A stretch of DNA of 64,000 nucleotides from Minisyncoccota bacterium (GCA_041674285.1 JBAYVZ010000005.1:5176-69175); one strand, 5' to 3'. Shown: positions 4,555-48,193, counted from the stretch's first letter. Program-made: numbers and translations. Notes: a model not told the origin generated them from the sequence alone.

Positions 4555-5763
4555 ATGTACACAAAAAAATTTACAGAGTCACTCTCTCTTGATTTGAAAA
4601 ATATCGAAGAGAGTGGAAAGTTCAAAAAAGAAAAGATGATCGAGAGAGTTCAAGGTTCTCATATCAAGATAGGGGAGCAGGATTTTATCATGTACGCCTC
4701 AAACAATTATCTCGGACTAGCAGGTAGTAAATTCTCAACAGATGCAAACAAAGAGGGATTGGAGAAATACGGTTTTGGTATGGCATCGGTCAGATTCCTA
4801 TCCGGCACTCAGACTATACATAGACAACTAGAGGAGAGGATAGCAAAATTCATCGGCACAGAAGATGCGATCATATATTCTACAGGATTCATGGCCAACC
4901 TTGGATTGTTTGCTACGATAATAAATGAACCTCGTGGAAGTGAAGCTCCCTACAAAGATGTTATATATAGCGATGCAAACAATCATGCTTCAATCATCGA
5001 TGCATTCAAGCTCTGCAAAAAAGAAAATCTAGACAAGAGAATCTACAAGGGTGGGGACCTAGCGATGCTTGAGCAATTCCTGTCAGAAGATAAAGATAAA
5101 AATTACAGAACAAAGATTATCGCTACGGACGGGATATTCAGCATGGAGGGGAATTCTGCTGATTTGAAAAAGCTTGTAGATCTAGCTGAAAAGTACGAGG
5201 CCCTACTATTTGTAGACGACGCACACGGTATAGGAGTGATGGGTGATCTCGGAAGAGGTACACCAGAGAGCTGTGATGCACTCGGGAAAGTGGACATCGT
5301 ATCTGGTACATTTGGCAAGGCGCTCGGTGGAGCAGTCGGTGGGTATATAGGAGGTAGTAGAGAGCTCGTAGAATATCTGCGACAAAAATCTCGCACATAC
5401 CTATTCTCAAATGCGATGCCAGCATCGATAGCATACACGGGGATAAAGACACTTGACCTACTAGAGAGCGATGATACACCAATCAAAAAAGTAAAAGAAA
5501 ATGCATTATACTTCAGACAGAAACTCGAAGAGAACAATCTGCCGACACTGCACGGCAATCATGCTATCGTCCCACTGATGATAGGTGATGCGAACAAAGC
5601 AGCCGAGATGTCTAGAAAACTTTTTGATGATGGTATCTATGCAGTCTCACTATCATTCCCAGTAGTACCAGAGGGCGAAGCACGAATCAGATTCCAACTT
5701 TCTGCACTACATACAAAAGAGGACATAGACGAGACAATAGAAAAAATAAAGAAACTATACTAA
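4555..5763 (+). CDS. kbl: 2-amino-3-ketobutyrate CoA ligase (glycine C-acetyltransferase); alpha-oxoamine synthase family
   Basis: 402 aa PLP fold-type I; SNNYLGL, STGFMANLG and FSMEG...DDAHG motifs. Its position beside tdh favours Kbl over BioF. Confidence 0.6.
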   Translation: MYTKKFTESLSLDLKNIEESGKFKKEKMIERVQGSHIKIGEQDFIMYASNNYLGLAGSKFSTDANKEGLEKYGFGMASVRFLSGTQTIHRQLEERIAKFIGTEDAIIYSTGFMANLGLFATIINEPRGSEAPYKDVIYSDANNHASIIDAFKLCKKENLDKRIYKGGDLAMLEQFLSEDKDKNYRTKIIATDGIFSMEGNSADLKKLVDLAEKYEALLFVDDAHGIGVMGDLGRGTPESCDALGKVDIVSGTFGKALGGAVGGYIGGSRELVEYLRQKSRTYLFSNAMPASIAYTGIKTLDLLESDDTPIKKVKENALYFRQKLEENNLPTLHGNHAIVPLMIGDANKAAEMSRKLFDDGIYAVSLSFPVVPEGEARIRFQLSALHTKEDIDETIEKIKKLY

Positions 5764-5800
5764 AAAAATAAAAGCCACAATTGTGGCTTTTATTTTTTTA
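5764..5800. terminator. Bidirectional hairpin terminator between convergent kbl and glmS
   Basis: AAAAGCCACAATTGTGGCTTTT is a perfect hairpin flanked by A-runs and T-runs on both sides. Confidence 0.6.
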
Positions 5801-12994: not shown

Positions 12995-13022
12995 AAAAAA
13001 ATCCGCAATTGCGGATTTTTTT
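12995..13022. terminator. Hairpin terminator
   Basis: AAAAAAATCCGCAATTGCGGATTTTTTT. Confidence 0.6.
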
Positions 13023-13201: not shown

Positions 13202-14773
13202 ATGTCATTCTCGCGAATATATTCTGCGCAGACACATCTACTAAAAGGCAAAGTAGTAACTATCGAAGTGGACATCACAAAGGGAACACTCCATGCATTT
13301 ACTCTTGTCGGACTACCAGACAAGGCCGTCGATGAATCCAAAGACCGCATGAGCTCAGCTCTGAAAAATTCTGGATTCAATTCTCCTAAAAATCAAAATC
13401 AAAAAATAGTCATCTCACTGTCTCCGGCAGATTTAAAAAAGGAGGGACCGTATTTTGATCTGGGTATCGCACTCGCATATCTACTGTCTGCAGGGGAGAT
13501 TGATTTCGATCCAGAGGGAAAAATATTTCTAGGTGAACTATCACTCAATGGTGAACTACAAAATATAAAAGGTGCACTGCCGCTGGCCGAGGAGGCCAAG
13601 AAGCGAGGCTTCAAAGAAATATTTTTACCAATCGGCAATGCGACAGAAGCAGCTCTCGTGTCGGGAATAAAAATTTATGGAGCTCGAAATCTCCGCGAAG
13701 TCATCGATCATCTATCTATACCTCGTAGGGACAAGAAGGGGAATTTATTGGAGCCAGAAAAAAATAAAATCGCACAGACACCCGAGACAAAAATAATTTT
13801 TGAAAATAAAAAACATGCGATAGATTTTTCTGACATTCGGGGACAAGAGGGTGCAAAGCGTGGATTAGAAATTGCAGCAGCCGGTGGACACAACATAGCG
13901 ATGAGTGGATCACCCGGCACAGGCAAGACGATGCTCGCACGAGTCTTCTCGCACATCCTACCCGAACTTTCCAAAGAAGATATTTTAGAAATCACAGGAA
14001 TACATTCTGTCGTCGGACTACTCGATGGAGCACTCGTGACCGAATCTCCATTCCGTGCACCACATCATACTGCGAGCTATGTATCGATGATCGGTGGTGG
14101 AACTAATCCAAAGCCAGGCGAGGTCACCCTCGCGCACAAGGGGGTTTTATTTTTAGATGAGTTCCCGGAGTTTGAGAAAAAAGTTCTCGAATCATTACGA
14201 CAACCACTCGAAGACAATATCGTATCCATCTCTCGTGCACGAGGGTCTGCAATATTTCCATCAAATTTTATTCTAGTTGCTGCGATGAATCCATGCCCGT
14301 GTGGCAATCGCGGTGACAAGAAAAAAATGTGTATCTGCAAACCGATGGACCTGGATAGATACAACAGAAAACTTTCCGGACCGATTCTAGATCGTATCGA
14401 CATCTGGGTAAATGTATCGTCAGTGGACTACGACAAACTCGCGAGTGAAGGGGTAGAGGGAGACAGAACAGAGACTATCAAGGAGCGCGTAGCCCGAGCC
14501 CGCAATATCCAGGAGAAGAGATTCAAGAGTGCTACAAGAAATATCAAGACAAATAGTGAGATGAATGTAAAAGAATTGAATGCATTCGCACCACTCTCGC
14601 CCGAGGTTCGTGAGATACTGCACAGCAGTGCCGAGCGACTACAGTTATCCGCTCGTGCATATCATCGAGTGATAAAGCTCGCCCGCACTATCGCAGATCT
14701 CGAGAGCTCTGAGCACATCACCACTCCGCATATCCTCGAAGCTCTGCAGTATAGACCGCGGACGCAGAATTAA
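13202..14773 (+). CDS. comM: Mg-chelatase-like AAA+ ATPase YifB/ComM
   Basis: GSPGTGKTM Walker A, VLFLDEFPEF Walker B, and a C-terminal ChlI/ComM region. Confidence 0.8.
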   Translation: MSFSRIYSAQTHLLKGKVVTIEVDITKGTLHAFTLVGLPDKAVDESKDRMSSALKNSGFNSPKNQNQKIVISLSPADLKKEGPYFDLGIALAYLLSAGEIDFDPEGKIFLGELSLNGELQNIKGALPLAEEAKKRGFKEIFLPIGNATEAALVSGIKIYGARNLREVIDHLSIPRRDKKGNLLEPEKNKIAQTPETKIIFENKKHAIDFSDIRGQEGAKRGLEIAAAGGHNIAMSGSPGTGKTMLARVFSHILPELSKEDILEITGIHSVVGLLDGALVTESPFRAPHHTASYVSMIGGGTNPKPGEVTLAHKGVLFLDEFPEFEKKVLESLRQPLEDNIVSISRARGSAIFPSNFILVAAMNPCPCGNRGDKKKMCICKPMDLDRYNRKLSGPILDRIDIWVNVSSVDYDKLASEGVEGDRTETIKERVARARNIQEKRFKSATRNIKTNSEMNVKELNAFAPLSPEVREILHSSAERLQLSARAYHRVIKLARTIADLESSEHITTPHILEALQYRPRTQN

Positions 14774-14820: not shown

Positions 14821-15594
14821 TTAAATCTCTTTTTCTAATCTTTTGGCTTCGGACCAGGCAAGCTCGTAGATCTTTTTCATAGCATCTGCTATCTCGGCGG
14901 ATTCAATGATAATTCCTAACTTTTCACGCCAAGAGGCTATCATGACCTTATTGTCGTAGATATTTATCTCTGGGTGAAAACCAAAACTATCAGGAACTAT
15001 TACAGATTCACGCTTCTCTTCTTTATCAAGACTAGCTCTTTCACGAGCATCTTGAGAATCGGGAAAAATTGCACGTATTGGAATACCTTTTTTTGCACGC
15101 CTCTTGTAATACTCAGGGAAATAATGGGGAAGTGTCGGCTGGATATCCTCGACACTTGCATAGGCAAGAATTGTCTCACTAGAGCTGAGAGTATCCTCAT
15201 ACACCTTCTGCAATCCATCCTTCCCCTCATAAAATTTTATCTTTGGCCTATTCTCTTTATTGTGAATAGATACCAGCTCAGGAATGATCTCTTTGGCCTG
15301 CTTAAGTGCGCTCGTATATTCGGATATCTTTTCCTGTAAGATATGCTCGATATTCTCAGGGGACTCAGCTGTGTATTCCTGCTTTGGTTCTTTGCCCGAG
15401 GTACGCACGAGCTTTTTAAGCTCGAGAGCTGCCAATACATGATAAGCAGTAGGGCGGTTGATACCAGCTTTGCGGGCAATCTGCGTAACGGTACCTTTTC
15501 CCAATTCCAGTAGAGCCAAATAGACTTCAATTTCTTTCTCTGAAAAGCCAATAGAAAGTAGGCTTTTTTTTATATCAAATGATGTATTTTCCAT
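14821..15594 (-). CDS. TrmB-family HTH transcriptional regulator
   Basis: N-terminal FSEKEIEVYLALLELGKGTVTQIARKAGINRPTAYHVLAALE wHTH. Confidence 0.55.
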   Translation of the reverse strand: MENTSFDIKKSLLSIGFSEKEIEVYLALLELGKGTVTQIARKAGINRPTAYHVLAALELKKLVRTSGKEPKQEYTAESPENIEHILQEKISEYTSALKQAKEIIPELVSIHNKENRPKIKFYEGKDGLQKVYEDTLSSSETILAYASVEDIQPTLPHYFPEYYKRRAKKGIPIRAIFPDSQDARERASLDKEEKRESVIVPDSFGFHPEINIYDNKVMIASWREKLGIIIESAEIADAMKKIYELAWSEAKRLEKEI

Positions 15595-15634
15595 CTCATT
15601 AAAAAATTAAAATAATAATGTTTATTTACAGTTT

Positions 15635-15658
15635 CCCGTAAGTCGATTTTCTAACGGG
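15635..15658 (-). repeat. Degenerate or minimal A-element (arms only: CCCGTTAG ... CTTACGGG)
   Basis: On the minus strand GTCCCGTTAGAAAATCGACTTACGGGA lies 45 nt upstream of the TrmB-like start. Confidence 0.3.
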
Positions 15659-15825
15659 ACAAGTATATTCATTGTATTCCAAGCACTATATTTTGTCAAT
15701 CTATATCAACAATATTATTTAAATCTATAAAACACCCTGTTTTACAAGATTAAAATTAAAGAAATTAGTTCTGTGTGCTTGACAAATATTGCTTGCCTGA
15801 TATTATATATATAAAATTTTAAAAC

Positions 15826-16248
15826 ATGGAACAAATAGAAAAAGGGCTCGACGACTTTCGAGTAGAAGCAGTTCGGGGTTTTTTAGGATATCAATCACTA
15901 AAGTATGATTTATCTAAAATAACACCAATTCAAATAAAGTATTCTAGATTATACTTTAAAAAAGAAGGATGTTTTATTGGTGACCTCAGATTAGAAGAAG
16001 CTACTTATATTAGTGATGCGATACTTCCTAATACCGAGGTCAAAAATGTACTATTAGAGGTAGATAGAGCTGGTAATCAGTGGCGAGTAGTCATGAAAAT
16101 TAATTTTTTTGGCTTGAGCTTGTGTGTGCCCCACACAGAAGAAAAACAATTCTATCTAGTTGGAATTCCTGATAATTTTGCCCCCAGATTCAAGGTAATT
16201 TGCAGGGAAGATGACCCTAATTTTCACAGAAATGACAATCTAATTTAA
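15826..16248 (+). CDS. Hypothetical protein
   Basis: 140-aa ORF with no recognisable motif. Confidence 0.3.
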   Translation: MEQIEKGLDDFRVEAVRGFLGYQSLKYDLSKITPIQIKYSRLYFKKEGCFIGDLRLEEATYISDAILPNTEVKNVLLEVDRAGNQWRVVMKINFFGLSLCVPHTEEKQFYLVGIPDNFAPRFKVICREDDPNFHRNDNLI

Positions 16249-16327
16249 TTTTTCATATAGAGCAGTGGGCTAACTACTGTTCTATATTATAAAGTTAATT
16301 TAAGTTATTATTAAATAAGTAAAATAT

Positions 16328-18013
16328 ATGACAAAGCAAAATTGTAAAACATGTAGTAGCGAGTTTGAGATAAGAGACGAGGATCTTGTTTTTTATGAGC
16401 AGATGAAAACAGTCCCGCCCACATACTGCCCAAATTGCCGAATGGCAAAAAGATTGACCTTCCGAAATGAAAGAACTTTTTACAAGCGCCCTTGTGACAT
16501 GTGCAAAAAGGATATCATCACAGTTTACTCTCCGGACTCACCATACACTGTATACTGCCACGATTGCTGGTGGGGTGACGCTTGGGACCCAAAAAGTTTC
16601 GGCAAAGATTATGATTTTAGTAAATCATTTTTCGAACAATACAAAGAACTACAACACGAAGTACCCCGAATTGGCCTCATGGCTTTCAATAATGTCCGAA
16701 GTGAGTATACAAATGGTTCAGCAGAAAATAAAGATTGCTATCTAATATTTGCTGCCGATTACAATGAAGATTGTATGTACGGGCGACTATTACAACGTGA
16801 CAAGCAGTGTGTGGATTGTGCATTCCTGCACGAATCAGAGCTCTGTTATGAATGTATCGACTGCCGACAATGCTTTAAAACAATGTACAGTGAGCAATGC
16901 CAGTCTAGCAGTGACCTACTATTCTGCTACAACATGCGTGATTCACAAAATTGTATTTTGTGTACCAATGGTCGCCATATGTCGAACTCTATTTTAAACA
17001 TAAAATATGACAAGGCCACATTCGAAGAAAAGAAAAAAGAAATACTTTCAAGTTATGAAAATATAGAAAATGCCAAAAAAAGTTTTGAAGAAATAAAAAA
17101 ACAGGCTATAAAAAAATACGCATCCCGCACAAAATGTCACAATGTGACAGGAGACTACCTACACAATTGCTATGATGGGGTAATGCTTTTTGACACATAT
17201 GATGCAAAAAATTGTTCTTATATGACTGACTGTGAAAGCCCGATAGATAGTATGGATTGCAATAACTACTACTACAAACCAGAACTAGGCTACAACATAA
17301 TGGGTGCACTAGAAGGAAGTAAGTTAAAAAATTCAGCTTTTGTATTCTACTGCAACGATGTCGAATATTGTGAGAGTTGTCATCATTTATCAGATTCAAT
17401 TGGATGTATTGGAATCCGAAAAGGAAAGTATCTGATTCTAAATAGAGAATATTCAAAAGAAGAATATCTAGATATTAGAAAAAAAATTGATGAACAAATG
17501 AAAGGGGATGAAAATTATGGACAATTTTTCCCGACAGATATTGCGCCTTTCGGATACAACGAAACACTCTCGCAAGATTTCTTTCCTCTAACACGTGAAG
17601 AGGCTCTGGCTAGAGGTTATCATTGGCAAGAAAAAAATACAGGTACATTTGGCAAGGAGACAATGGGCGAAGAAAATATTCCGAGCTCCATAGAAAAGAC
17701 ACAGGACACGATAATATCAGAGATCCTAGCCTGCAATGAATGTGGCAAGAATTATAAAATCACACAAGCAGAATTGGATTTTTATAAACGACTAAACATC
17801 CCGATCCCGCACAAAGATTTTGAATGTCGCCACCAAGACAGGATGAGAAAAAGAAATCCGAGAAAATTATATGATGGTCACTGTATGTGTGAGGCAGAAA
17901 ATCATATCAATCACGAGGGCTCAAAGTGTAGCGAGATATTCAAGACGACATACAGCCCCGACAGAGGCGAGACAGTATACTGTGAATCATGTTATCAGCA
18001 AGAAGTATCATAA
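16328..18013 (+). CDS. Cysteine-rich protein with multiple zinc-ribbon modules, function unknown
   Basis: More than 35 Cys. The module C-x2-C...Y-x-R...C-x2-C...VYC-x2-C recurs at the N- and C-termini around a central Cys cluster. Confidence 0.4.
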   Translation: MTKQNCKTCSSEFEIRDEDLVFYEQMKTVPPTYCPNCRMAKRLTFRNERTFYKRPCDMCKKDIITVYSPDSPYTVYCHDCWWGDAWDPKSFGKDYDFSKSFFEQYKELQHEVPRIGLMAFNNVRSEYTNGSAENKDCYLIFAADYNEDCMYGRLLQRDKQCVDCAFLHESELCYECIDCRQCFKTMYSEQCQSSSDLLFCYNMRDSQNCILCTNGRHMSNSILNIKYDKATFEEKKKEILSSYENIENAKKSFEEIKKQAIKKYASRTKCHNVTGDYLHNCYDGVMLFDTYDAKNCSYMTDCESPIDSMDCNNYYYKPELGYNIMGALEGSKLKNSAFVFYCNDVEYCESCHHLSDSIGCIGIRKGKYLILNREYSKEEYLDIRKKIDEQMKGDENYGQFFPTDIAPFGYNETLSQDFFPLTREEALARGYHWQEKNTGTFGKETMGEENIPSSIEKTQDTIISEILACNECGKNYKITQAELDFYKRLNIPIPHKDFECRHQDRMRKRNPRKLYDGHCMCEAENHINHEGSKCSEIFKTTYSPDRGETVYCESCYQQEVS

Positions 18014-18016
18014 ATT

Positions 18017-18043
18017 AAAATCACCCCATATTGGGGTGATTTT
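18017..18043. terminator. Bidirectional hairpin terminator
   Basis: AAAATCACCCC-atatt-GGGGTGATTTT. Confidence 0.6.
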
Positions 18044-18049
18044 AATTTA

Positions 18050-18463
18050 TTATTTATTGTACTGAGCTCTGATCTGTGCGCCGGCGACACCGTCGACTAT
18101 CAGACCCTTTGACGCTTGGAATTCACGGAGAGCTTTATCTGTCAGTGGGCCAAAGTTGCTTGTCGCCTTGTGAGTCGCTAGTTCTTTTGCAGCAGGACCT
18201 ACTGATTTCTTTATTAAAAATTTCTGGAGAGTCATAACATCTGAACCCTTCATACCTAGCTTCAAATTACGGACAGTAGCCTTTTTTGATTTAGCTTTTG
18301 CTTTTGGCTTGGCTGAATACGGAGCAGTACCTACTGTGAATTTGGTAGGAGTAGGGATAAATCTTTCCGCTGAAACAAAAAGAGGTGAAACTCCAGCTAA
18401 AAATGAAGCGAATATAAAAATTGTAAATATTTTTTTAATCATTTGGTTGGAAGTCACGTGCAT
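18050..18463 (-). CDS. Secreted peptidoglycan-binding-domain protein
   Basis: Signal peptide; the C-terminal GSDVMTLQKFL...GPLTDKALREFQASKGLIVDGVAG matches the PG_binding_1 pattern. Confidence 0.5.
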   Translation of the reverse strand: MHVTSNQMIKKIFTIFIFASFLAGVSPLFVSAERFIPTPTKFTVGTAPYSAKPKAKAKSKKATVRNLKLGMKGSDVMTLQKFLIKKSVGPAAKELATHKATSNFGPLTDKALREFQASKGLIVDGVAGAQIRAQYNK

Positions 18464-19634
18464 TTACTTTTAATCCTAGGTACGGGTTGCTCTGTGGGCC
18501 ATGGAAACCGATATGAGTATGTGGGCCTGTAGATTTACCAGTATTACCTACATAACCAATAATCTGACCTCTTTTTACCTTATCCCCAGGCTGTACAAGA
18601 ACTTTGCTCATATGACCAAATATGGCTTGTCTACCATCTGTAAAGTCGATAACCACATAAAGACCATATCCTCCATTGTATCCAGTAGGGCGGGCAATCA
18701 AGACAGATCCATCATATATAGCGTATATAGGTGTACCCTTTGGTGCGGCAAAGTCATAAGCATTGTCTCCATGTAGACCTTGGGATATACGCCCTATACC
18801 CCTTGGGAATGGCCAGATATAGCTACTTGAGATTGAGCCGTCTGGCTGACCACTAGAAGCAGGATCTTCTTTAGGCTCTTCGACTATATTTTTAACCTCT
18901 TTTACAGGGACAGCTTCTACTACGACGGGAGCTGGGGCAGGAGTCGGAGCTTGTGCTACTAGCTTTTTAGGCTGTTCGATTAACTTTTCTGAAGAAGTAG
19001 TCTTTTTCTCTGGTGTTTTTGAAGTCACCTTGATTTCTGGAGCTTTTTCGGCCTTTTCAGTCACCTTTGGTACATTCACAGGGATGATAGATAGGACTTG
19101 ACCCACTTTTAGGACTTCGCCCTTCTTTAAGCTGGCAGCATAAACTACTGAATCCTTGGAAACCTTTAATTTTCGAGCGATACCATCTATTGTATCTCCC
19201 TTTTTAACTATATAATTACTGATTTTCTCTGTTGTAGCGTATTTTTGGACGTCATTGTTGCCTAGGAAGCCCTCTGTGGCCTCTATAGCCTGCTCACCGA
19301 CAGTCCCTTGACTTAAATCTATAACTGTATTCTTTAGTTCTGGGGTTAGATTTGATTCAAGAAGAGGGACTGTTTGCGAGTTGTGGGGCATATCTCCGGT
19401 AGACTCGGGAACAACAGAGGCATAGGTATCTGACCCTACAATAGCGCTAAATACATCCCCAAAAAAACTAGCAGAAGCAGTACTAGGAGCCAGTGATACC
19501 GACAAAACAAGGACCAAAGAAAAACAAGCTTTCATAGTAAAAGCTTTATTTTGCAAGGCTATTTTTGGAAAACTGGCTTTCTGCTCTAGGAGCTCGTGGC
19601 GCAGATTTTCCTTTTTAAAGAAAAATGATTGCAT
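18435..19634 (-). CDS. Secreted LysM-domain M23 (LytM-type) metallo-endopeptidase
   Basis: LysM (YIVKKGDTIDGIARKLKVS), a Pro/Ala-rich linker, and M23 motifs HGDNAYDFAA and GYVGNTGKSTGPHTH. The signal peptide (MKACFSLVLVLSVSLAPSTASA) suggests the true start is about 19535. Confidence 0.75.
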   Translation of the reverse strand: MQSFFFKKENLRHELLEQKASFPKIALQNKAFTMKACFSLVLVLSVSLAPSTASASFFGDVFSAIVGSDTYASVVPESTGDMPHNSQTVPLLESNLTPELKNTVIDLSQGTVGEQAIEATEGFLGNNDVQKYATTEKISNYIVKKGDTIDGIARKLKVSKDSVVYAASLKKGEVLKVGQVLSIIPVNVPKVTEKAEKAPEIKVTSKTPEKKTTSSEKLIEQPKKLVAQAPTPAPAPVVVEAVPVKEVKNIVEEPKEDPASSGQPDGSISSSYIWPFPRGIGRISQGLHGDNAYDFAAPKGTPIYAIYDGSVLIARPTGYNGGYGLYVVIDFTDGRQAIFGHMSKVLVQPGDKVKRGQIIGYVGNTGKSTGPHTHIGFHGPQSNPYLGLKVNARDFQPND

Positions 19635-19750
19635 AAGAAATGTGGGCGTACGGACAGGCGGTCATCTGAGGGAAACTATCCACTATTCTGTATTGCAGGG
19701 GTATATTCCCCCTGTCTATATATGGTACCGCAGGGGGTATATGTAGTCAA

Positions 19751-19782
19751 CCATAGTTATGCACATATGTGCATAACTATGG
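19751..19782. promoter_or_regulatory. 32-bp perfect palindrome (candidate operator)
   Basis: CCATAGTTATGCACATATGTGCATAACTATGG lies about 100 nt upstream of the 999-aa gene. Confidence 0.4.
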
Positions 19783-19882
19783 GAAAACATAGGCACCGAG
19801 AATGGGGGTATTTTCTTTGACAACACACAACTTAATATTGTAAAATATAGGTACTTTTAACAATAAAACTTATAAATATATT

Positions 19883-22882
19883 ATGTCAGGACACGAATCA
19901 CATGGGCACGAAAAAAAAGTTGTCATCCGAAAACCTATCAAAAAATATGAAAAGGAGGAAAATATAACTGATGAATATATAGAAAACCTGGGGGCAGAAC
20001 TCATAATAATAAGAGACCAGCTGGCAGATCTAGAGGAGAGAATGCACGGGAAACTGAGCTCAAAGGATAAACACGACATAGAACACCTAATACATGAAAA
20101 AACAGAGAGGGAAATACATCTCTTAAATGAACAGGCTCGTGCTTTTATTTATTCCATAAAAGAAGAAGAGGCACTAACAAAAGCAAGAGAGAGGGTAAAT
20201 TTTTTAAAAAAAGACATTCCCCATGAGAAAATCCCAGAACTAAAAAAGAAAAAAGAGAATGAGCTTACTGAACTAGAAGAAAACATAATTACACAAAGCT
20301 TAAAAGCAGAAAAGAACAAGGAAAATATTGAGGATGCAAAAATACAAATTCAATTAAATAGAACTCGATCTGAGTATGCAAAAGAATTCAAAAAGCACAA
20401 TAAAGGAATTAAAACGAGGAAGGCAATAGACTCTGTATCTACTTATTTAAAAAATATCGGAATAAAGACAAAGAACAAATTAAACTCAATAAGACCATCC
20501 TCTTGGGATTGGACACGGGATGATTTTGCAAAGGGGAATAATGGACAAAAAAACCTTTTAAAGAAAAAAGATATTTCAGAGTATGAGACACCTGAGCTAA
20601 AAGCAAAGAGGGGAGCCTATGATGCAGCTCGTCTTGCTTTTGCAGATAGAATGTACGAGAAGAGAAAAAACGAGCTCGCAAGCGCAAGCTCAATAACAGA
20701 AGAAGCAGCAGTGGAAGAACTCAGAGAAAAAGAACTTCACAAAGCAGAAGCAAGTGGTGTGAATATGAGCCTGGACGACATAAAAGAATGGGAAGAAATA
20801 TTTAAGCGTAAAGTAAAATCCGGTGAATACAAAGATGAAATAGAAGAAATAAAAAACAGAGGAAAGATAGATTCTACAGAACAGATAAGGAGATTACAAC
20901 AATTTAAGGCAAAAGAAATACTTCAAAAAACTTTCTTTGATGAAAGAAGGAGGGTATATGAGGAGAGTGGTGTACCAGAGAGGGGTGCAGTTTTGAAATT
21001 GATGCATGGGTATGCGAGCCTGCCAAGATGGAAAAGAATCACACTGTCTACAATACTATTCACTGCTGGTGGAGTAACAGGGGCAATCCCATTCGCCCCT
21101 TTTGCTGGAGCAATGATAGCAAAATACGGCATAATATCTTACGCCGGGATGAGATTTGGTTTAAGTGCTTTTACAGCAGGAGTAGCAACAGAGGGCGCAA
21201 GGGGAGCAGATCGGTGGAATCACAAAAAAGATGAAGAATTTAAAAAAGAACAAGCGAGAAAAAGAAAAGAATCAGAGGATCAATTTGCAAATGGAGAGAT
21301 AAGCAAAGAAACACATGAAAAAAATCTTATTTCCATAGAAATAGATGAAAATGAAGATAGAAAAAAAAGAATGAGAATAAAGGCTGTAGTTGGAACACTA
21401 CTAGGTGTTGGAGCGGGAGCTGGGGCTTATCAATTAATAGGTGGAATGATGACCCCAGAAAATGAACACATAACACCACCAATGACAAAAGGAGAGCACT
21501 TTACTAAAGCGCCTGCACCAGTTCAACTAGAAAAAACCCTCGATGAATTTGCAGTGAAAGCAGACAGGGTAGAGGCAGTACCTACACCCCCAGCACCGAT
21601 TAGTACAGGAGGAGATCCAGTAATGTTAAAATACCCAGATCTAAATATCGACCAGACAGAGTTTAAAAATATGGAAGGGGGGCTAGCTACTACATCAGAT
21701 TTCACTCCACATACTACAGCAGATGAATTCAACCCAGGTAATTCAAATGCAGACCAAACACCTGCAGTAGAAAAACCAAAATACAATTTTGGAGATTATA
21801 ATCCAGATGAAAGGAATCTCAACCAAGAGAATCCTGAATCCGGGGAGAGATTAGAACTACCAAAGACCCCAGCCCCAGAGGGGCAAGAGAACCCTGAATC
21901 TGGAGAAAGGTTAGATATACCAGAGACTCCAGATCCAACTGGCCAAGAGAACCCTGAATCTGGAGAAAGGTTAGATATACCAGAGACTACAGGGGATGCA
22001 ACAGAGCCAAAAATAGAGAGTCCTACATCTACAGAAAATACAAATACTGAATCTGATATAAATAATAGTACTGAAAAGCCTAAACTTAAAATAAATTTTG
22101 AAGAGACTCAGAAGATCCAAGAAAATCAATTGACTGAACTTAAAAATGAACTAGGCGAAAAAGAATACAACAAGATAATTAAAGATCTAGAATCTAAAAA
22201 CATTCCCTACAAATCAGACTCAACGGCATTCCGAACAATTTCAATAGGAGAAAGTACTAATGAAAATTTTGCGAGAACTATTGCTAGAAATTATGCTGGT
22301 TCTCAGGTTCTAGAACAAACAGGTCAAACACAAGCAACAATAGGTAGTAGCCGAATCTTAGATTCACACATGTACAAACTTCCTAACGGGGAATACCGAA
22401 GTGTGATAATATTTGAAACAGAAAAAGTAAACGGGCAAGATGTTGGCGAGCTTTTAAACACAGAAAAAAGCCCAATAACAGAAGTCCCAGAGAGCACTGG
22501 AAATGGGGAAGAAATGAAAATCAACCCTCAGGAGACAAAAGGAAGTATGGAGGCTCCAAACATAGAAAGTGAGACTAACCTTGCCATTGAAAATATAATA
22601 AAGGAAGGGAAATACAAGGATATAGTTAAAAACGTAGAAATGCTTGGTTATAAATTTGAAGGGTCTCGCAGTGCAGATGTTACTGTTCTAAAATTCCTAG
22701 AATCTTACAAGTCTGGTGAATACACATTAGCAATAGACTCAGCAGATGCTCCTACACACAATCTTGCGTCTCAAGCAATTAGCCAGAGACAAGACCTCGT
22801 AAACACAGCAGAAAAAATGAATCTATGGAAAAAAACTGACAGTGGATATCATATGATTTCTATTCGTTTAATCAAAAAATAA
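19883..22882 (+). CDS. Giant (999 aa) coiled-coil membrane protein with tandem 20-aa repeats
   Basis: K/E-rich coiled coil of about 330 aa at the N-terminus, two TM helices (ITLSTILFTAGGVTGAIPF ... ), and QENPESGERL[DE][IL]P[EK]TP repeated three times. Confidence 0.4.
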   Translation: MSGHESHGHEKKVVIRKPIKKYEKEENITDEYIENLGAELIIIRDQLADLEERMHGKLSSKDKHDIEHLIHEKTEREIHLLNEQARAFIYSIKEEEALTKARERVNFLKKDIPHEKIPELKKKKENELTELEENIITQSLKAEKNKENIEDAKIQIQLNRTRSEYAKEFKKHNKGIKTRKAIDSVSTYLKNIGIKTKNKLNSIRPSSWDWTRDDFAKGNNGQKNLLKKKDISEYETPELKAKRGAYDAARLAFADRMYEKRKNELASASSITEEAAVEELREKELHKAEASGVNMSLDDIKEWEEIFKRKVKSGEYKDEIEEIKNRGKIDSTEQIRRLQQFKAKEILQKTFFDERRRVYEESGVPERGAVLKLMHGYASLPRWKRITLSTILFTAGGVTGAIPFAPFAGAMIAKYGIISYAGMRFGLSAFTAGVATEGARGADRWNHKKDEEFKKEQARKRKESEDQFANGEISKETHEKNLISIEIDENEDRKKRMRIKAVVGTLLGVGAGAGAYQLIGGMMTPENEHITPPMTKGEHFTKAPAPVQLEKTLDEFAVKADRVEAVPTPPAPISTGGDPVMLKYPDLNIDQTEFKNMEGGLATTSDFTPHTTADEFNPGNSNADQTPAVEKPKYNFGDYNPDERNLNQENPESGERLELPKTPAPEGQENPESGERLDIPETPDPTGQENPESGERLDIPETTGDATEPKIESPTSTENTNTESDINNSTEKPKLKINFEETQKIQENQLTELKNELGEKEYNKIIKDLESKNIPYKSDSTAFRTISIGESTNENFARTIARNYAGSQVLEQTGQTQATIGSSRILDSHMYKLPNGEYRSVIIFETEKVNGQDVGELLNTEKSPITEVPESTGNGEEMKINPQETKGSMEAPNIESETNLAIENIIKEGKYKDIVKNVEMLGYKFEGSRSADVTVLKFLESYKSGEYTLAIDSADAPTHNLASQAISQRQDLVNTAEKMNLWKKTDSGYHMISIRLIKK
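21823..21990 (+). repeat. Tandem 60-nt in-frame coding repeat (about 2.8 units)
   Basis: Units 2 and 3 are identical over about 50 nt (CCAAGAGAACCCTGAATCTGGAGAAAGGTTAGATATACCAGAGACT). Confidence 0.7.
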
Positions 22883-23211: not shown

Positions 23212-23219
23212 TACAAAAG

Positions 23220-23240
23220 AAAAACGCCTTTGGCGTTTTT
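23220..23240 (+). terminator. Rho-independent terminator
   Basis: AAAAACGCC-ttt-GGCGTTTTT. Confidence 0.6.
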
Positions 23241-23264
23241 CTTTTGTTCTGTATAATAGAACCA

Positions 23265-45393: not shown

Positions 45394-45515
45394 AATGTCT
45401 AATATATACTATAATGGTGCATTATGCAACCCATAAAGTTATCCACACGATATACACAGGATTGCACACAATTCAAACAGGACGATTATAAATCTTAACT
45501 AGTATAATAGGAACT

Positions 45516-46868
45516 ATGGTATCAGATACAAAAAAATTATGGGAAAGCTGTTTGGCGGAAATCGAATTATCCATTTCAAAAGCAAATTTTACAACCTGGT
45601 TTAAAAATACACAGATAGTAAAAGAAGAGGAGGGAGTACTATTTATAGGAGTACCAAATGAATTCGTAAAAGACTGGTTGAATAATAAATTTCACAAGCT
45701 AATCCTTAAAACTCTAATGAATTATGAGGATAGTGTACGCAATATAGAATACATAATCACAAAACACGAAGTAGTAAAACCAAAAACAGAAAATGAACAA
45801 GCCCCTATATCTATAAACAAAGAACTGCCACTAGCTGATCTCTATGTAAACAAGGACGACAACTTAAATCCTAAATATACATTCAATAATTTTATTGTTG
45901 GACCATTCAACGAGCTTGCATATGCAGTTTCCCAAGCTATCATCACCACACCAGGGGAAACATATAATCCATTCTTTGTATATGGAGGTACAGGTCTTGG
46001 TAAGACACATATGATCCAATCGATAGGGAATAGTATCAAGAATAAATTTCCAAATAAAAAGATTTATTATGTGAGTCTTGAAAAATTTGCTATTGACTAC
46101 ATAAACTCAATTCAAAACAAAAATCCAAATGGATTTAAAGAGAAGTATAGAAAATACGATGTGATAATTATGGATGACATCCAATTCATATCAGGAAAAG
46201 AAAAGACTCAAGAAGAATTATTCCATTTGTTCAATATATTCCACGAAAACAATAAGCAAATTGTTTTTTCTTCAGATAAACATCCAAACTTTATCCAAGG
46301 ATTAGAAGAACGTCTACAATCTAGATTCGCTTCTGGTATGACAGTACAGATAACAGAGCCTGACTATGAATCACGCGTAGCGATCATCAAAGCTAAGCTA
46401 CAGAAGACAAATATAATAGTGGATGAACCAGTCATCTCCTACCTTGCAGAGGTACTAGAGGGTAATATACGAGAATTGGAGGGTAGTTTAAATACAATCA
46501 TCTGCCAATCTCAACTCAAAGATAAATCACTCTCTTTAAATGAGACAAAAAATTTAATTAAAAATAATATCCGACCAAAGAAAAATGTAGCTATCAAAGA
46601 TATTATTAAAATAATTGCTGATTATTACAATATCCCCGAAGCTCACGTATATGAGAAGACCAGGAGAAAGGAGATAGTCCAAGCTCGCCAAGTAGCGATG
46701 TACCTACTCCGAGAAGATTTCAATATTTCATACCCACTAATAGGTCAAAAGTTTGGGGGTAGGGATCACACCACAGTCATACACTCACACCTCAAAATAA
46801 AAGAAGATTTAAAGACGAATCCAAGCCTACTCCAAGAGATAGAGAGGATCAGAATCATGTTCAAATAG
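45516..46868 (+). CDS. dnaA: Chromosomal replication initiator DnaA
   Basis: GGTGLGKTHM AAA+ motifs and a C-terminal DNA-binding helix-turn-helix. Confidence 0.92.
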   Translation: MVSDTKKLWESCLAEIELSISKANFTTWFKNTQIVKEEEGVLFIGVPNEFVKDWLNNKFHKLILKTLMNYEDSVRNIEYIITKHEVVKPKTENEQAPISINKELPLADLYVNKDDNLNPKYTFNNFIVGPFNELAYAVSQAIITTPGETYNPFFVYGGTGLGKTHMIQSIGNSIKNKFPNKKIYYVSLEKFAIDYINSIQNKNPNGFKEKYRKYDVIIMDDIQFISGKEKTQEELFHLFNIFHENNKQIVFSSDKHPNFIQGLEERLQSRFASGMTVQITEPDYESRVAIIKAKLQKTNIIVDEPVISYLAEVLEGNIRELEGSLNTIICQSQLKDKSLSLNETKNLIKNNIRPKKNVAIKDIIKIIADYYNIPEAHVYEKTRRKEIVQARQVAMYLLREDFNISYPLIGQKFGGRDHTTVIHSHLKIKEDLKTNPSLLQEIERIRIMFK

Positions 46869-47092
46869 CTGTGGATAAAACTGTTAATAACTAGGGGGCT
46901 AGAATTTAACAAGATGTTCACAAAAACATAAACAAAACTAATCCACAGCAAAGTATACAGATGACATGTTTTATAAGAATTTTAAAAAAGAGATAAAAAG
47001 CTTACTTTATATAGTCGAAAAAAGTAATCCACATATCCACAGGAATAGTATTAGTAATAGAGTTTATTTAATAATTAATTAAGAAAGAATAT
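46869..47092. promoter_or_regulatory. oriC: DnaA-box cluster between dnaA and dnaN
   Basis: TGTGGATAA (46869-46877, perfect), TAATCCACA (46939-46947), TAATCCACA (47025-47033) and ATATCCACA (47034-47042), with an AT-rich stretch. One more perfect TTATCCACA lies at 45439-45447, upstream of dnaA. Confidence 0.6.
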
Positions 47093-48193
47093 ATGAAACT
47101 AGAATGTTCAATAGAAAAGATAAAAGATGCACTAATAACAGCAGAAAGAATTACAGGAAAGAACCTCACTCTTCCAGTACTAGGATCTGTACTTTGGGTA
47201 GCTTCAAATAAAGTTTTAAAACTTCGAGCTACAAATTTAAACATTGGTATTGAGATTGAGATACCGGCAAAGATAGAGACTGAGGGTGTAGTGGCTGTGA
47301 AGGGTGATATTCTTTCTTCTTTGTTTTCTCTACTACACGGAGATTCTACTGTAAAGTTTGAATTAATTGATTCTAATTTTTCTGTTAAAACAAAATCAAA
47401 TAATATTTTATTAAATACAATTCCTTATGAAGACTTTCCAACTATTCCGATACTCTCCGGTGAAGAGATTACAGTACCCTCTGTAAAGCTCGTAGAGGGC
47501 CTCAAGGCGGTTTATTATAGCGCAGCGGTATCAGACATCAAACCAGAGATTGGAAGTGTCTACATCTACCCACAGGACGATATGCTGGTGTTCGTGGCGA
47601 CAGACTCTTTCCGTCTCGCAGAAAAGAAAGTTAAGATTAAAAAAGAACTTAATTTTGATGGAATATTATTACCTTTAAAAAATGCAACAGAGATAATTCG
47701 TATTTTAGATGGGGTGGATGATGATGTAAAAATAATCTTACACAAAAATCAGATATCTCTATCTGTGAATGGTATATATATCACATCTAGAGTTGTAGAT
47801 GGAACATTCCCAGATTACAAACAAATTATTCCAAGAGAATCAAAAACTCAAGCTACACTTCTCAAGCAAGATTTGTTGTATGCAATAAAAGTTTCAAATA
47901 TTTTATCTGATAAATTTAATCAAATAACATTTAATCTGAAACCTAATGAAAAAGTTTTTGAAGTTGATTCAAAAAATAATGATATAGGTGAGAACACTAC
48001 ACACATAGAAAGTTCTCTGTCTGGGGAAGAGGTGAGTGTAAATATAAATTATAAATACATTGTGGATTGTTTTCAGTCTATAAATGGCGATAGTGTGACA
48101 CTGGAATTCAATGGTAGTAATAGACCTATTATAATTCGTGTAGTAGGAGATTCATCTTTTATGTATCTCGTGATGCCTATGAACCGTCAGTAA
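47093..48193 (+). CDS. dnaN: DNA polymerase III beta sliding clamp
   Basis: 366 aa; three-domain clamp pattern; position after dnaA. Confidence 0.88.
   Translation: MKLECSIEKIKDALITAERITGKNLTLPVLGSVLWVASNKVLKLRATNLNIGIEIEIPAKIETEGVVAVKGDILSSLFSLLHGDSTVKFELIDSNFSVKTKSNNILLNTIPYEDFPTIPILSGEEITVPSVKLVEGLKAVYYSAAVSDIKPEIGSVYIYPQDDMLVFVATDSFRLAEKKVKIKKELNFDGILLPLKNATEIIRILDGVDDDVKIILHKNQISLSVNGIYITSRVVDGTFPDYKQIIPRESKTQATLLKQDLLYAIKVSNILSDKFNQITFNLKPNEKVFEVDSKNNDIGENTTHIESSLSGEEVSVNINYKYIVDCFQSINGDSVTLEFNGSNRPIIIRVVGDSSFMYLVMPMNRQ

What the first reader, a model, noticed from the sequence alone, without database searches (positions are those of the whole stretch)
19640..19882. 32-bp perfect palindrome and a second GC-rich inverted repeat upstream of the 999-aa membrane protein gene
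The palindrome CCATAGTTATGCACATATGTGCATAACTATGG (19751-19782) is perfect over 32 bp. Immediately 5' of it is GGGGTATATTCCCCCTG...CAGGGGGTATATG (19698-19745), containing CCCCCTG/CAGGGGG arms and a repeated GGGGTATAT. The region is locally GC-richer than its surroundings.

A perfect 32-mer palindrome in an AT-rich genome is very unlikely by chance. It is a strong candidate for a dimeric transcription-factor operator, or for a structured RNA leader of the downstream gene at 19883.
Basis: seen in the sequence. Interest (0 to 1): 0.5.

Follow-up and report, generated by a model that had tools for sequence, protein, structure and literature searches.

The report
Palindromic operator at M23 peptidase promoter
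The perfect 32-bp palindrome is real and conserved, but it sits just upstream of the promoter of the cell-wall peptidase gene on the opposite strand, not the 999-aa gene, and is most likely a protein-binding control site made of two facing DnaA-box-like sequences.

Summary
The palindrome (19751-19782) is perfect, far beyond chance and single-copy. The window comes from a Candidatus Paceibacterota (CPR) metagenome contig. Comparison of 12 syntenic lineages shows the conserved features belong to the minus-strand M23/LysM peptidase gene (18435-19634). These are a sigma-70-type promoter, TTGACT (19750-19745), 17 nt, TACCAT (19727-19722), an inferred TSS near 19715, and a near-invariant leader.

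The arm next to the -35 (19751-19766, -51..-36) is conserved in all 12 lineages. The other arm (19767-19782) exists only in one monophyletic clade of five. There it is 16/16 invariant, while the adjoining 24 bp are scrambled and 4-fold sites are 58-65% identical.

Each arm contains TTATGCACA, a full match to the DnaA-box consensus TT(A/T)TNCACA. The only position that varies across lineages is the N. Canonical TTATCCACA boxes flank dnaA in the same window.

The "GC-rich inverted repeat" resolves into a covarying 5'-terminal RNA hairpin of the M23 leader (19696-19714). The complementary CCCCCTG in the promoter spacer is not maintained as its partner.

Best reading: a DNA-level operator of the M23 promoter, probably bound by DnaA, doubled by inverted duplication. 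An RNA leader for gene 19883 and a TrmB link are not supported. This is a new member of a known kind, of moderate interest.

The parts
19751..19782 (.). Perfect 32-bp palindrome. It spans -67..-36 relative to the inferred M23 TSS, with its centre at -51.5.
19751..19766 (-). Promoter-proximal arm. On the M23 strand it reads ATGTGCATAACTATGG (-51..-36). It is the ancestral element and directly abuts the -35.
   Evidence: Conserved as (A/C)TGTG(C/T)ATAACTA(T/C)GG in all 12 syntenic lineages. In the fetched loci it is found only at this orthologous position.
19767..19782 (.). Distal arm: a clade-specific inverted copy of the proximal arm.
   Evidence: Present only in the monophyletic group A (window, L002, L024, L005, L030). 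It is 16/16 invariant there, while the adjacent spacer has 4/24 invariant columns. L006, L009, L032, L010, L011, L021 and L033 lack it.
19757..19765 (+). DnaA-box match TTATGCACA (fits TT[A/T]TNCACA), at -50..-42 of the M23 promoter.
   Evidence: In L006 and L009 it is TTATACACA, so only the N position varies. The consensus is quoted from PMC6868365.
19768..19776 (-). Second DnaA-box match TTATGCACA. It is convergent with the first, with 2 bp (TA) between them, at -61..-53.
   Evidence: Present in group A only.
19745..19750 (-). -35 hexamer TTGACT of the M23 promoter (TTGACG in four lineages).
   Evidence: Promoter scan. GGTTGAC is invariant in 12 lineages.
19722..19727 (-). -10 hexamer TACCAT with a 17-nt spacer, inside the invariant block CCCTG(C/G)GGTACCATATATA.
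   Evidence: The TSS near 19715 is inferred from hexamer geometry and is not measured.
19731..19737 (-). CCCCCTG in the promoter spacer (-22..-16). It is complementary to 19708-19714 in the window's clade only.
   Evidence: Watson-Crick pairs fall from 7 to 3-6 in group B. The partner covaries with the P1 3' strand instead.
19696..19714 (-). P1: an RNA hairpin, CAGGGG-GAAUAUA-CCCCUG, at +2..+20 of the M23 mRNA.
   Evidence: Each of the 12 lineages folds into a 6-9-bp hairpin here, with different stem sequences and loops (GAAUAUA, UAAG, CAGG, UUCA, UUCG). Pair 57/71 is GC in 6 and AU in 5 sequences.
19635..19715 (-). M23 5' UTR (about 81 nt). It contains P1 and P2, where P2 is (A/G)GAA..GUGG paired with CCAC..UUCU and ends 3 nt before the AUG.
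   Evidence: 75/81 columns are invariant in group A. RNAalifold finds one compensatory change in P2 in L006, GUAG/CUAC. The single-sequence fold gives z = -1.8. No Rfam family matches.
19676..19684 (+). Weak DnaA-box-like CTATCCACT, which is TTATCCAC(T/C) in 8 of 12 lineages, at +32..+40. It overlaps the GUGG strand of P2.
   Evidence: The RNA pairing explanation competes with the box explanation, because L006 shows a compensatory change.
19628..19636 (-). TTATGCAAT spanning the M23 start codon, inside the 37-nt invariant block ACATTTCTTATGCAATCATTTTT.T.TAAAAAGGA. TTATGCA is complementary to the TGCATAA of the proximal arm and identical to the arm's box core.
   Evidence: TTATGCAAC also heads the box array upstream of dnaA.
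18435..19634 (-). M23/LysM peptidoglycan peptidase gene, the gene the element serves.
   Evidence: Pfam Peptidase_M23 1.5e-25 and LysM 2.2e-6. Synteny holds in all relatives.
19783..19806 (.). Unconstrained spacer between the palindrome and the 999-aa gene's promoter.
   Evidence: Mean pairwise identity is 0.52 (minimum 0.25) in group A. It is completely replaced in L024.
19817..19846 (+). Promoter of the 999-aa gene: TTGACA, 18 nt, TAAAAT.
   Evidence: 11/12 match to consensus. The hexamers are conserved and the spacer is variable in group A and L006.
19883..22882 (+). 999-aa orphan membrane protein gene. It is a neighbour, not the target of the conserved elements.

Best explanation
The palindrome is a DNA-level regulatory site of the promoter of the M23/LysM peptidase gene on the minus strand.

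Shown:
- A 16-bp element directly upstream of the -35 (-51..-36) is conserved in every lineage that shares this promoter.
- In one clade, an exact inverted copy was added next to it, giving the perfect 32-mer.
- That copy has since been kept unchanged while the flanking spacer randomised.
- Each arm carries TTATGCACA, a complete match to the DnaA-box consensus.

Inferred:
- The replication initiator DnaA, acting as a transcription factor, binds the box at -50..-42 in all lineages. In the window's clade it also binds a second, convergent box 2 bp away.
- This couples expression of a cell-wall, cell-separation hydrolase to replication status.
- Whether it activates or represses cannot be told. 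The weak -10 (TACCAT) and the site's position next to the -35 favour activation or recruitment. The further box-like sequences at +32 and at the start codon would fit repression by a DnaA oligomer.

The GC-rich 'second inverted repeat' is a separate thing. It is the 5'-terminal stem-loop of the M23 mRNA leader (probably a stabilising or regulatory hairpin), plus a fortuitous or clade-specific complement in the promoter spacer.

My confidence is about 0.75 that it is a protein-binding site of the M23 promoter, and about 0.45 that the protein is DnaA. The stated 0.5 is for the combined statement.
For: Reality and uniqueness:
- Arm length is 16, against 7-11 in shuffles.
- There is no other copy in the window, in about 230 kb of related loci, or in the phage, plasmid and viral collections.

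Promoter:
- TTGACT-17-TACCAT is found by the scan.
- Both hexamers lie in invariant blocks across 12 lineages.
- Canonical TTGACA promoters are used by neighbouring genes.

Proximal arm:
- It is conserved in all 12 lineages. The block ends sharply at the palindrome axis on one side and merges into the conserved -35 on the other.

Distal arm:
- It is present only in the monophyletic group A.
- It is 16/16 invariant, against 4/24 in the next 24 bp.
- 4-fold-site identity of the window is 0.58 to L030, 0.65 to L005 and 0.87 to L002 in M23. For ComM the values are 0.51, 0.64 and 0.72.
- By my arithmetic, a neutral 16-mer would be identical with probability about 1.6e-4 (L030) and 1e-3 (L005).

DnaA:
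- TTATGCACA fits TT(A/T)TNCACA on both arms (consensus from PMC6868365).
- Across lineages the box varies only at the N position: TTATGCACA or TTATACACA.
- The chance that a given 16-mer holds a consensus match is about 9e-4. This comes from 7.49 expected matches per 128,000 position-strands, times 16 placements.
- The organism has dnaA and dnaN in the window.
- Perfect TTATCCACA boxes lie at 45439 and 46870. There are arrays with 2-bp spacing upstream of dnaA and in the dnaA-dnaN spacer.
- Each lineage has 2-3 boxes with at most one mismatch within 340 bp, where about 0.14 are expected.
- DnaA is an established activator and repressor of, among others, cell-division genes (PMC8203912).

P1 hairpin: covariation and loop swaps.
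Against: - No binding or transcription data exist. The TSS is inferred from hexamer geometry only.
- The relaxed DnaA consensus is not enriched in the window as a whole: 10 matches against 7.5 +/- 2.7.
- I compared the arm from memory with roughly ten regulator motifs before DnaA fitted, so the corrected chance is about 1e-2.
- The conserved unit is 16 nt, not 9. The six outer bases (CTATGG) are invariant in the distal arm too, which a DnaA box alone does not explain.
- Convergent boxes 2 bp apart are not a documented DnaA arrangement. DARS boxes I and II are 5 bp apart (PMC6868365).
- The +32 box-like block is also explained by the P2 RNA pairing. In L006 a compensatory change keeps the pairing but destroys the box.
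- Only one origin event for the distal arm is sampled, so its link to any function is phylogenetically a single observation.
Confidence: 0.5

Rival explanations
1. The palindrome is an operator for a different, unidentified dimeric or tetrameric DNA-binding protein that recognises the whole 16-bp half-site. The DnaA-box match is a coincidence.
For: All 16 positions of each arm, including the six outside the 9-mer box, are conserved. Perfect dyad symmetry suits a symmetric oligomer. The relaxed DnaA consensus is common by chance in this AT-rich DNA. The proximal arm also contains an internal dyad, CATAnnTATG, centred near -41.5 (read).
Against: No candidate regulator co-varies with the element. 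The TrmB module is uncoupled from it. No second site for such a factor occurs in 64 kb or in the related loci. In seven lineages only one half-site exists, yet it is fully conserved, which is unusual for an obligate symmetric dimer site. The variable position coincides with the N of the DnaA box.
Confidence: 0.22
2. Only the proximal arm is functional. The distal arm is a by-product of a replication template switch (snap-back copying) that made a perfect inverted copy. It has stayed identical because hairpin-templated correction of quasipalindromes is much faster than point mutation, not because the copy does anything.
For: A zero-spacer, 100% perfect palindrome is the signature of template switching rather than of selected operators, which are usually imperfect. 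Quasipalindromes are corrected to perfect palindromes by template switching (PMC7202029), and template switching creates new perfect hairpins (bioRxiv 10.1101/2023.04.19.537475). The sister lineage L006 has a weak in-register resemblance at the distal position, 7/16, including TTAT..AC. This would fit a quasipalindrome precursor. The single mismatch seen (L005, CTGTGG) is near the outer end, where correction is least efficient.
Against: The copy coincides exactly with the conserved functional unit at both ends: the axis lies at the element's edge and the outer end stops at the -35 boundary. It has persisted unchanged through divergence that saturated 4-fold sites and scrambled the neighbouring 24 bp in at least three independent branches. 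The L005 mismatch has not been corrected.
Confidence: 0.15
3. The element acts at RNA level. A longer M23 transcript starts upstream of the palindrome. The proximal arm (UGCAUAA) pairs with the start-codon region (UUAUGCA) to mask translation initiation, and the distal arm competes for it as a 16-bp hairpin.
For: RNAalifold pairs columns 6-12 with 134-140 (7 bp). The only substitution (C to U in L006 and L009) keeps a G-U pair. The whole stretch from the arm to the start codon is unusually conserved for a promoter.
Against: Both partners are invariant, so there is no covariation. There is no conserved promoter upstream of the palindrome. That DNA is scrambled within group A and carries the divergent gene's promoter. 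The invariant TTGAC and TACCAT at 17-nt spacing are better explained as a promoter that would start transcription downstream of the arm. The companion helix predicted in the same fold (columns 14-19 with 43-48) shows no compensatory change, and its pair 16/46 is broken in 2 of 12 sequences.
Confidence: 0.06
4. The palindrome is a recombination or structural boundary element, such as a cruciform or crossover hotspot. It would mark the edge of the hypervariable 999-aa gene cassette.
For: L024 equals L002 up to and including the palindrome, and equals the window from 19807 on, with a unique 24-26 bp directly next to the distal arm. The 999-aa gene is mosaic between strains.
Against: The window-versus-L002 breakpoint is elsewhere, at about 19862. 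No matching site occurs at the other mosaic boundaries or anywhere else in the window. The mosaic pattern fits ordinary homologous recombination anchored in conserved DNA. The proximal arm is conserved in lineages without the palindrome.
Confidence: 0.05

Closest known systems
DnaA-box-controlled promoters (DnaA as transcription factor: dnaA autoregulation, nrd and mioC in E. coli; the B. subtilis DnaA regulon; ftsZ/gcrA in Caulobacter)
   Same: There are 9-mers that fit TT(A/T)TNCACA next to and around a sigma-70-type promoter. The target gene belongs to cell-cycle and cell-envelope physiology. The cognate DnaA uses canonical boxes at its own oriC and dnaA promoter (PMC8203912, PMC4447404).
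   Different: The two boxes are convergent, 2 bp apart, and part of a perfect 32-bp palindrome. Conservation covers 16 nt per arm rather than 9. The target is an M23/LysM peptidase in a CPR bacterium, and I found no precedent for that. Binding is untested.
DARS core (DnaA-reactivating sequences of E. coli)
   Same: It is a pair of oppositely oriented DnaA boxes lying outside oriC (PMC6868365).
   Different: DARS has three boxes, a conserved 5-bp gap between boxes I and II, and is not a palindrome. Here there are two boxes, a 2-bp gap and no box III in the required place, and the site is embedded in a promoter.
Classical palindromic operators of dimeric repressors and activators in divergent intergenic regions
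   Same: It has dyad symmetry, lies between back-to-back promoters and abuts a -35 hexamer.
   Different: It is perfect over 32 bp with no spacer. Only one half is ancestral. No regulator gene is linked to it.
Quasipalindrome template-switch products
   Same: It is an exact inverted copy of adjacent sequence with a zero-length spacer (PMC7202029; bioRxiv 10.1101/2023.04.19.537475).
   Different: Here the copy equals a functional unit and has been retained across deep divergence. This suggests a mutational origin followed by selection.
lysM-TM7, lysM-Actino, lysM-Prevotella and M23 RNA motifs (Weinberg et al. 2017, PMC5737381)
   Same: These are candidate cis-regulatory structured 5' UTRs of lysM and M23 peptidase genes, one of them from a CPR phylum. 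The M23 leader here is likewise strongly conserved and has covarying hairpins.
   Different: There is no Rfam 15 match on either strand, even at E <= 10. The leader here is a separate candidate, and it does not include the palindrome.

Membership tests
DnaA box / DnaA-regulated promoter | A 9-mer matching TT(A/T)TNCACA | tested here: met
   TTATGCACA at 19757-19765 (+) and 19776-19768 (-). The proximal box is kept in all 12 lineages and varies only at N.
DnaA box / DnaA-regulated promoter | The match is more than chance | tested here: inconclusive
   The window-wide count of 10 against 7.5 +/- 2.7 is not enriched. The chance for this 16-mer is about 9e-4 before correcting for about 10 motifs tried. 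Local density is 2-3 hits against 0.14 expected per 340 bp.
DnaA box / DnaA-regulated promoter | The organism encodes DnaA that uses canonical boxes | tested here: met
   Bac_DnaA 2.9e-64 and Bac_DnaA_C 2.7e-26. Perfect TTATCCACA lies at 45439 and 46870, with arrays around dnaA.
DnaA box / DnaA-regulated promoter | DnaA binds the site and changes transcription | not testable with these tools
   This needs EMSA, footprinting or ChIP, plus reporter assays.
DARS core | Three DnaA boxes, with I and II head-to-head and a conserved 5-bp gap (PMC6868365) | tested here: not met
   There are only two boxes at the palindrome, 2 bp apart. The next box-like sequence is about 80 bp away.
Sigma-70-type promoter (M23 gene) | -35 and -10 hexamers at 16-18 nt, conserved across relatives | tested here: met
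   TTGACT-17-TACCAT scores 9/12. The hexamers are invariant in 12 lineages. The TSS itself is not testable here.
Structured RNA leader of the gene at 19883 | The element lies between that gene's TSS and its start codon | tested here: not met
   The conserved promoter at 19817-19846 puts the TSS at about 19853, which is 70 nt downstream of the palindrome.
Rfam families, including lysM-TM7, lysM-Actino, lysM-Prevotella, M23 and ydaO-yuaA | A covariance-model match | tested here: not met
   There is no hit at gathering score in the window. At E <= 10 over 19450-19950, the only hits are spurious miRNA-hairpin matches to the palindrome.
Intrinsic (bidirectional) terminator | A GC-rich stem followed by a T-run, at the end of a gene | tested here: not met
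   No terminator-like site was found. The flanks are GTCAA and GAAAAC, and both neighbouring genes diverge from the site. The true terminator palindromes at 5761, 12995, 18007 and 23213 have A/T-run flanks.
Dispersed repeat / MITE / mobile-element end | Multiple copies in the genome or in other genomes | tested here: not met
   It is single-copy in 64 kb. In 33 fetched loci it occurs only at the orthologous position. There is no match in plasmids, phages or viral contigs. The rest of the 258-kb contig and the genome were not searchable.
Operator of the nearby TrmB-like regulator | Co-occurrence of regulator and site, and a similar site at the regulator's own promoter | tested here: not met
   L005 and L030 have the palindrome without the adjacent TrmB module. 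L032 has TrmB with one arm only. No half-site lies in 15595-15825. A TrmB copy elsewhere in those genomes cannot be excluded.

The most novel reading that the evidence does not exclude
In these reduced CPR genomes with few transcription factors, DnaA may be a main cell-cycle regulator. The head-to-head box pair at the M23 promoter would then be a new type of DnaA site. One possibility is a convergent two-box switch that reads DnaA nucleotide state or dosage to time daughter-cell separation. Another is a DARS-like or titration site embedded in a promoter. In either case it arose by inverted duplication of a single ancestral box, and it sits beside a novel conserved riboregulatory leader of the peptidase mRNA.
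Probability: 0.12. Interest if true: 0.6.

Novelty: new member of a known kind. Interest (0 to 1): 0.4.

Why it matters
Almost nothing is known about transcriptional control in Patescibacteria (CPR), which cannot be grown alone and encode very few regulators. This locus offers three things:
- A sharply delimited, strongly conserved promoter plus leader for a peptidoglycan hydrolase.
- A concrete, testable candidate regulator, DnaA, which would link replication to cell-wall cleavage.
- A dated example of how a single binding site becomes a perfect palindromic site by inverted duplication and is then retained.

It also corrects the gene assignment. Anyone testing the site should assay the M23 peptidase promoter, not the 999-aa gene.

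Tried and rejected
- Known RNA families: Rfam at gathering score and at E <= 10 gave nothing relevant. ARAGORN found no tRNA or tmRNA.
- Terminator: rejected.
- Repeat family or mobile element: rejected for the DNA available.
- Homologues of the 999-aa protein: only itself was found, so synteny was followed through the M23 gene instead.
- Genome and metagenome scans with the invariant 20-mer ATTTCTTATGCAATCATTTT: only three true loci were found (L018 = the L002 contig, L021, L024) among 14 hits. This exhausted those caps, so the palindrome itself could not be scanned there.
- TrmB link: rejected.
- Alternative M23 start codon at 19535: considered. An ATG, GTG or TTG occurs at or within one codon of that position in most lineages, but it is ATT in L030. 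The KIAL(F)xK(P/A) motif upstream of it is conserved in homologues at 45-50% identity. The annotated start at 19634 is therefore kept, while nucleotide-level constraint overlaps the first 33 codons.
- Regulator motifs compared from memory and not matching: CRP and FNR (half-sites in the wrong order or spacing), PhoB and WalR direct repeats, sigma-54 and ECF promoters, the LysR T-N11-A box, the NrdR box (CAC..GTG spacing is 4, not 8), Fur, Rex, parS (the central CACGTG is absent) and dif/Xer (wrong arm order, and only about 26 kb from oriC). These are recollections, not tests.
- An apparent 9-nt reverse (not complementary) match between the L024 spacer and the window spacer: judged to be chance.

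Full report
OBSERVATION

The sequence CCATAGTTATGCACATATGTGCATAACTATGG lies at 19751-19782. It is a perfect palindrome of two 16-nt arms with no spacer. In 50 dinucleotide-preserving shuffles of the whole window, the longest such arm was 7-11 nt. As single-stranded DNA it forms a 14-bp hairpin of -14.2 kcal/mol (z = -7.1). The GC-rich repeat is also there: GGGGTATATTCCCCCTG at 19698-19714 and CAGGGGGTATATG at 19731-19743. GC content is 0.42-0.48 over 19600-19800, against about 0.39 for the window. No other copy or half-site exists in the 64 kb. The other long perfect palindromes of the window (5761-5800, 12995-13022, 18007-18053, 23213-23247) have A/T-run flanks and sit at gene ends, so they are terminators. 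This one does not.

CONTEXT

The window is part of an ENA metagenome contig (ERZ27247358, k141_1702343, 258 kb). The nearest named relative is a Candidatus Paceibacterota MAG (JAGOUR010000004.1).

The palindrome lies in a divergent intergenic region. On the minus strand is an M23/LysM peptidoglycan peptidase gene (18435-19634; Pfam 1.5e-25 and 2.2e-6). On the plus strand is a 999-aa protein with no Pfam domain and no detectable homologue other than itself.

COMPARATIVE DATA

I followed synteny through M23 homologues and one DNA scan each of the genome and metagenome collections. This gave 12 distinct syntenic lineages, all with the same divergent arrangement.

These are truly diverged genomes. 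4-fold degenerate sites are 0.47-0.65 identical to the window for most of them, in M23 and in the neighbouring ComM gene.

Against that background, about 250 bp on the M23 side of the intergenic region are nearly invariant. Read on the minus strand, the invariant blocks are:
- (A/C)TGTG(C/T)ATAACTA(T/C)GG
- GGTTGAC
- CCCTG(C/G)GGTACCATATATA
- a stretch running to and past the start codon.

TTGACT (19750-19745), 17 nt, TACCAT (19727-19722) is a sigma-70-type promoter. Neighbouring genes use canonical TTGACA promoters, for example TTGACA-18-TAAAAT at 19817-19846 for the 999-aa gene. From hexamer geometry I infer a TSS near 19715. This is an inference, not a measurement.

WHAT THE PALINDROME IS

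With that numbering, the arm at 19751-19766 occupies -51..-36 and directly abuts the -35. It is present in all 12 lineages.

The other arm (19767-19782, -67..-52) is present only in five lineages: window, L002, L024, L005 and L030. These form a monophyletic group in the M23 tree, with L006 as sister.

Within that group the segments compare as follows:

| Segment | Invariant columns |
|---|---|
| Distal arm | 16/16 |
| Proximal arm | 15/16 (L005 has one change) |
| Next 24 bp towards the 999-aa gene | 4/24 (mean identity 0.52, minimum 0.25) |

By my arithmetic, a neutral 16-mer would stay identical to L030 with probability about 0.58^16 = 1.6e-4, and to L005 with about 1e-3.

So the palindrome arose once, as an exact inverted copy of a pre-existing conserved promoter-upstream element. 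It has been maintained since. It is 34 bp upstream of the -35 of the 999-aa gene's promoter and is not part of that gene's transcript.

THE SECOND INVERTED REPEAT

On the minus strand, CAGGGG (19714-19709), GAAUAUA, CCCCUG (19701-19696) forms a hairpin at +2..+20 of the inferred M23 mRNA. Every lineage folds into a 6-9-bp hairpin at this place. The stem sequences differ (CAGGGG/CCCCUG, AAGGGG/CCCCUU, AGGGGG/CCCUCU and others), and so do the loops (GAAUAUA, UAAG, CAGG, UUCA, UUCG).

It is complete only in the window's clade and falls to 3-6 Watson-Crick pairs elsewhere. This happens because CAGGGGG co-varies with the downstream strand, not with the spacer.

The rest of the 81-nt leader has a second helix, (A/G)GAA..GUGG with CCAC..UUCU. 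It ends 3 nt before the AUG and shows one compensatory change. There are further hairpins in the first 100 nt of the ORF. Support for these is modest, and the single-sequence z-score is -1.8.

No Rfam family matches. That includes the lysM-TM7, lysM-Actino, lysM-Prevotella and M23 motifs, which Weinberg et al. described upstream of such genes (PMC5737381).

WHO BINDS

Each arm contains TTATGCACA: 19757-19765 on the plus strand and 19776-19768 on the minus strand. The two are convergent and 2 bp apart. This is a complete match to the DnaA-box consensus TT(A/T)TNCACA (consensus as quoted in PMC6868365).

Evidence for DnaA:
- Across the 12 lineages the proximal box is TTATGCACA or TTATACACA. It varies only at the degenerate position.
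- The same window carries dnaA and dnaN.
- Perfect TTATCCACA boxes lie at 45439 and 46870. Arrays of near-consensus boxes, some 2 bp apart, lie upstream of dnaA and in the dnaA-dnaN spacer. This organism's DnaA therefore uses canonical boxes.
- A further TTATCCAC(T/C) lies at +32..+40 in 8 of 12 lineages.
- TTATGCAAT spans the start codon, and TTATGCAAC heads the dnaA-upstream array.
- DnaA is a known activator and repressor, including of division genes (PMC8203912, PMC4447404).

Caveats:
- The relaxed consensus is not enriched in the window overall (10 against 7.5 +/- 2.7).
- The chance for this 16-mer is about 9e-4, but I tried about ten motifs from memory first.
- The conserved unit is 16 nt, not 9.
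- The +32 block is also explained by RNA pairing.
- Convergent boxes 2 bp apart are not a described arrangement. DARS uses 5 bp and a third box (PMC6868365).

I therefore rate 'protein-binding site of the M23 promoter' at about 0.75 and 'the protein is DnaA' at about 0.45.

RIVALS

(a) Another symmetric regulator recognises the full half-site.

(b) The distal arm is a template-switch product kept perfect by hairpin-templated correction rather than by selection (PMC7202029; bioRxiv 10.1101/2023.04.19.537475). L006 shows a weak in-register resemblance (7/16) that could be a quasipalindrome precursor.

(c) An RNA-level role exists in a longer transcript. The proximal arm's UGCAUAA is complementary to UUAUGCA at the start codon. 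However, there is no covariation and no conserved upstream promoter.

(d) It is a recombination boundary, suggested by the L024 mosaic.

The TrmB idea is not supported.

VERDICT

The gene, the RNA-leader alternative and the candidate regulator are wrong.

It is a new member of a known kind: a promoter-proximal protein-binding palindrome, plausibly a DnaA-box pair. The instructive features are its origin by inverted duplication and the conserved, possibly riboregulatory, M23 leader next to it. Interest is moderate.

Noticed in passing
window 19883-22882 (compare L002:2783-5752 and L024:6063-7679): The 999-aa orphan gene is hypervariable and mosaic. The window and L002 share only 35-55% nt identity over about 19900-21450, while the flanks are 93-98% identical, with patches of 92-100% further on. 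N-terminal allele types (MSGHESHGHE... versus another type) are shuffled relative to the M23 tree. This looks like a fast-evolving or diversifying surface or membrane protein.
   Followed up: partly
L024 against window 19783-19806: L024 is a recombinant. It is 100% identical to L002 on the M23 side up to and including the palindrome, and 97-100% identical to the window from 19807 on. It has a unique, unalignable 24-26 bp directly next to the distal arm.
   Followed up: partly
window 19536-19715, minus strand: The M23 5' UTR and first 33 codons are almost invariant at nucleotide level, including third codon positions, across lineages with saturated synonymous sites. There are covarying hairpins: P1, P2, and one enclosing a second in-frame start at 19535. 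This is a candidate new cis-regulatory leader, with no Rfam match.
   Followed up: partly
window 45420-45470 and 46869-47092: dnaA (45516-46868) and dnaN (47093-48193) are flanked by DnaA-box arrays: TTATGCAAC, TTATCCACA, ATATACACA and TTGCACACA upstream, and TTATCCACA, TAATCCACA (twice) and ATATCCACA in the spacer. They lie in the most AT-rich part of the window. This is very likely oriC.
   Followed up: partly
window 14821-18013: The TrmB-like regulator plus the 140-aa and 561-aa genes behave as a variable module. The module is present in the window, L002, L024 and the outgroup L012. It is absent between ComM and M23 in L005, L030, L006, L010 and L011. TrmB in L032 is 98% identical in protein although its M23 is only 60% identical. 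The 561-aa protein is only 72% identical between the window and L002.
   Followed up: partly
window 5761-5800, 12995-13022, 18007-18053, 23213-23247: Long perfect or near-perfect palindromes with A-run and T-run flanks lie at gene ends. They look like bidirectional intrinsic terminators.
   Followed up: no
window 13202-14773 against L010 and L011: ComM (Mg-chelatase-like) is 97% identical in protein between the window and L010/L011, although their M23 peptidases are about 60% identical. The ComM and M23 similarity rankings disagree (L006 is more distant than L010 for ComM). This indicates recombination and very uneven rates across this locus.
   Followed up: no
window 15636-15660: An inverted repeat, CCCGTAAGTCGATTTTCTAACGGG, lies in the TrmB / 140-aa divergent intergenic region. 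It is a possible operator of that pair and is unrelated in sequence to the palindrome.
   Followed up: no
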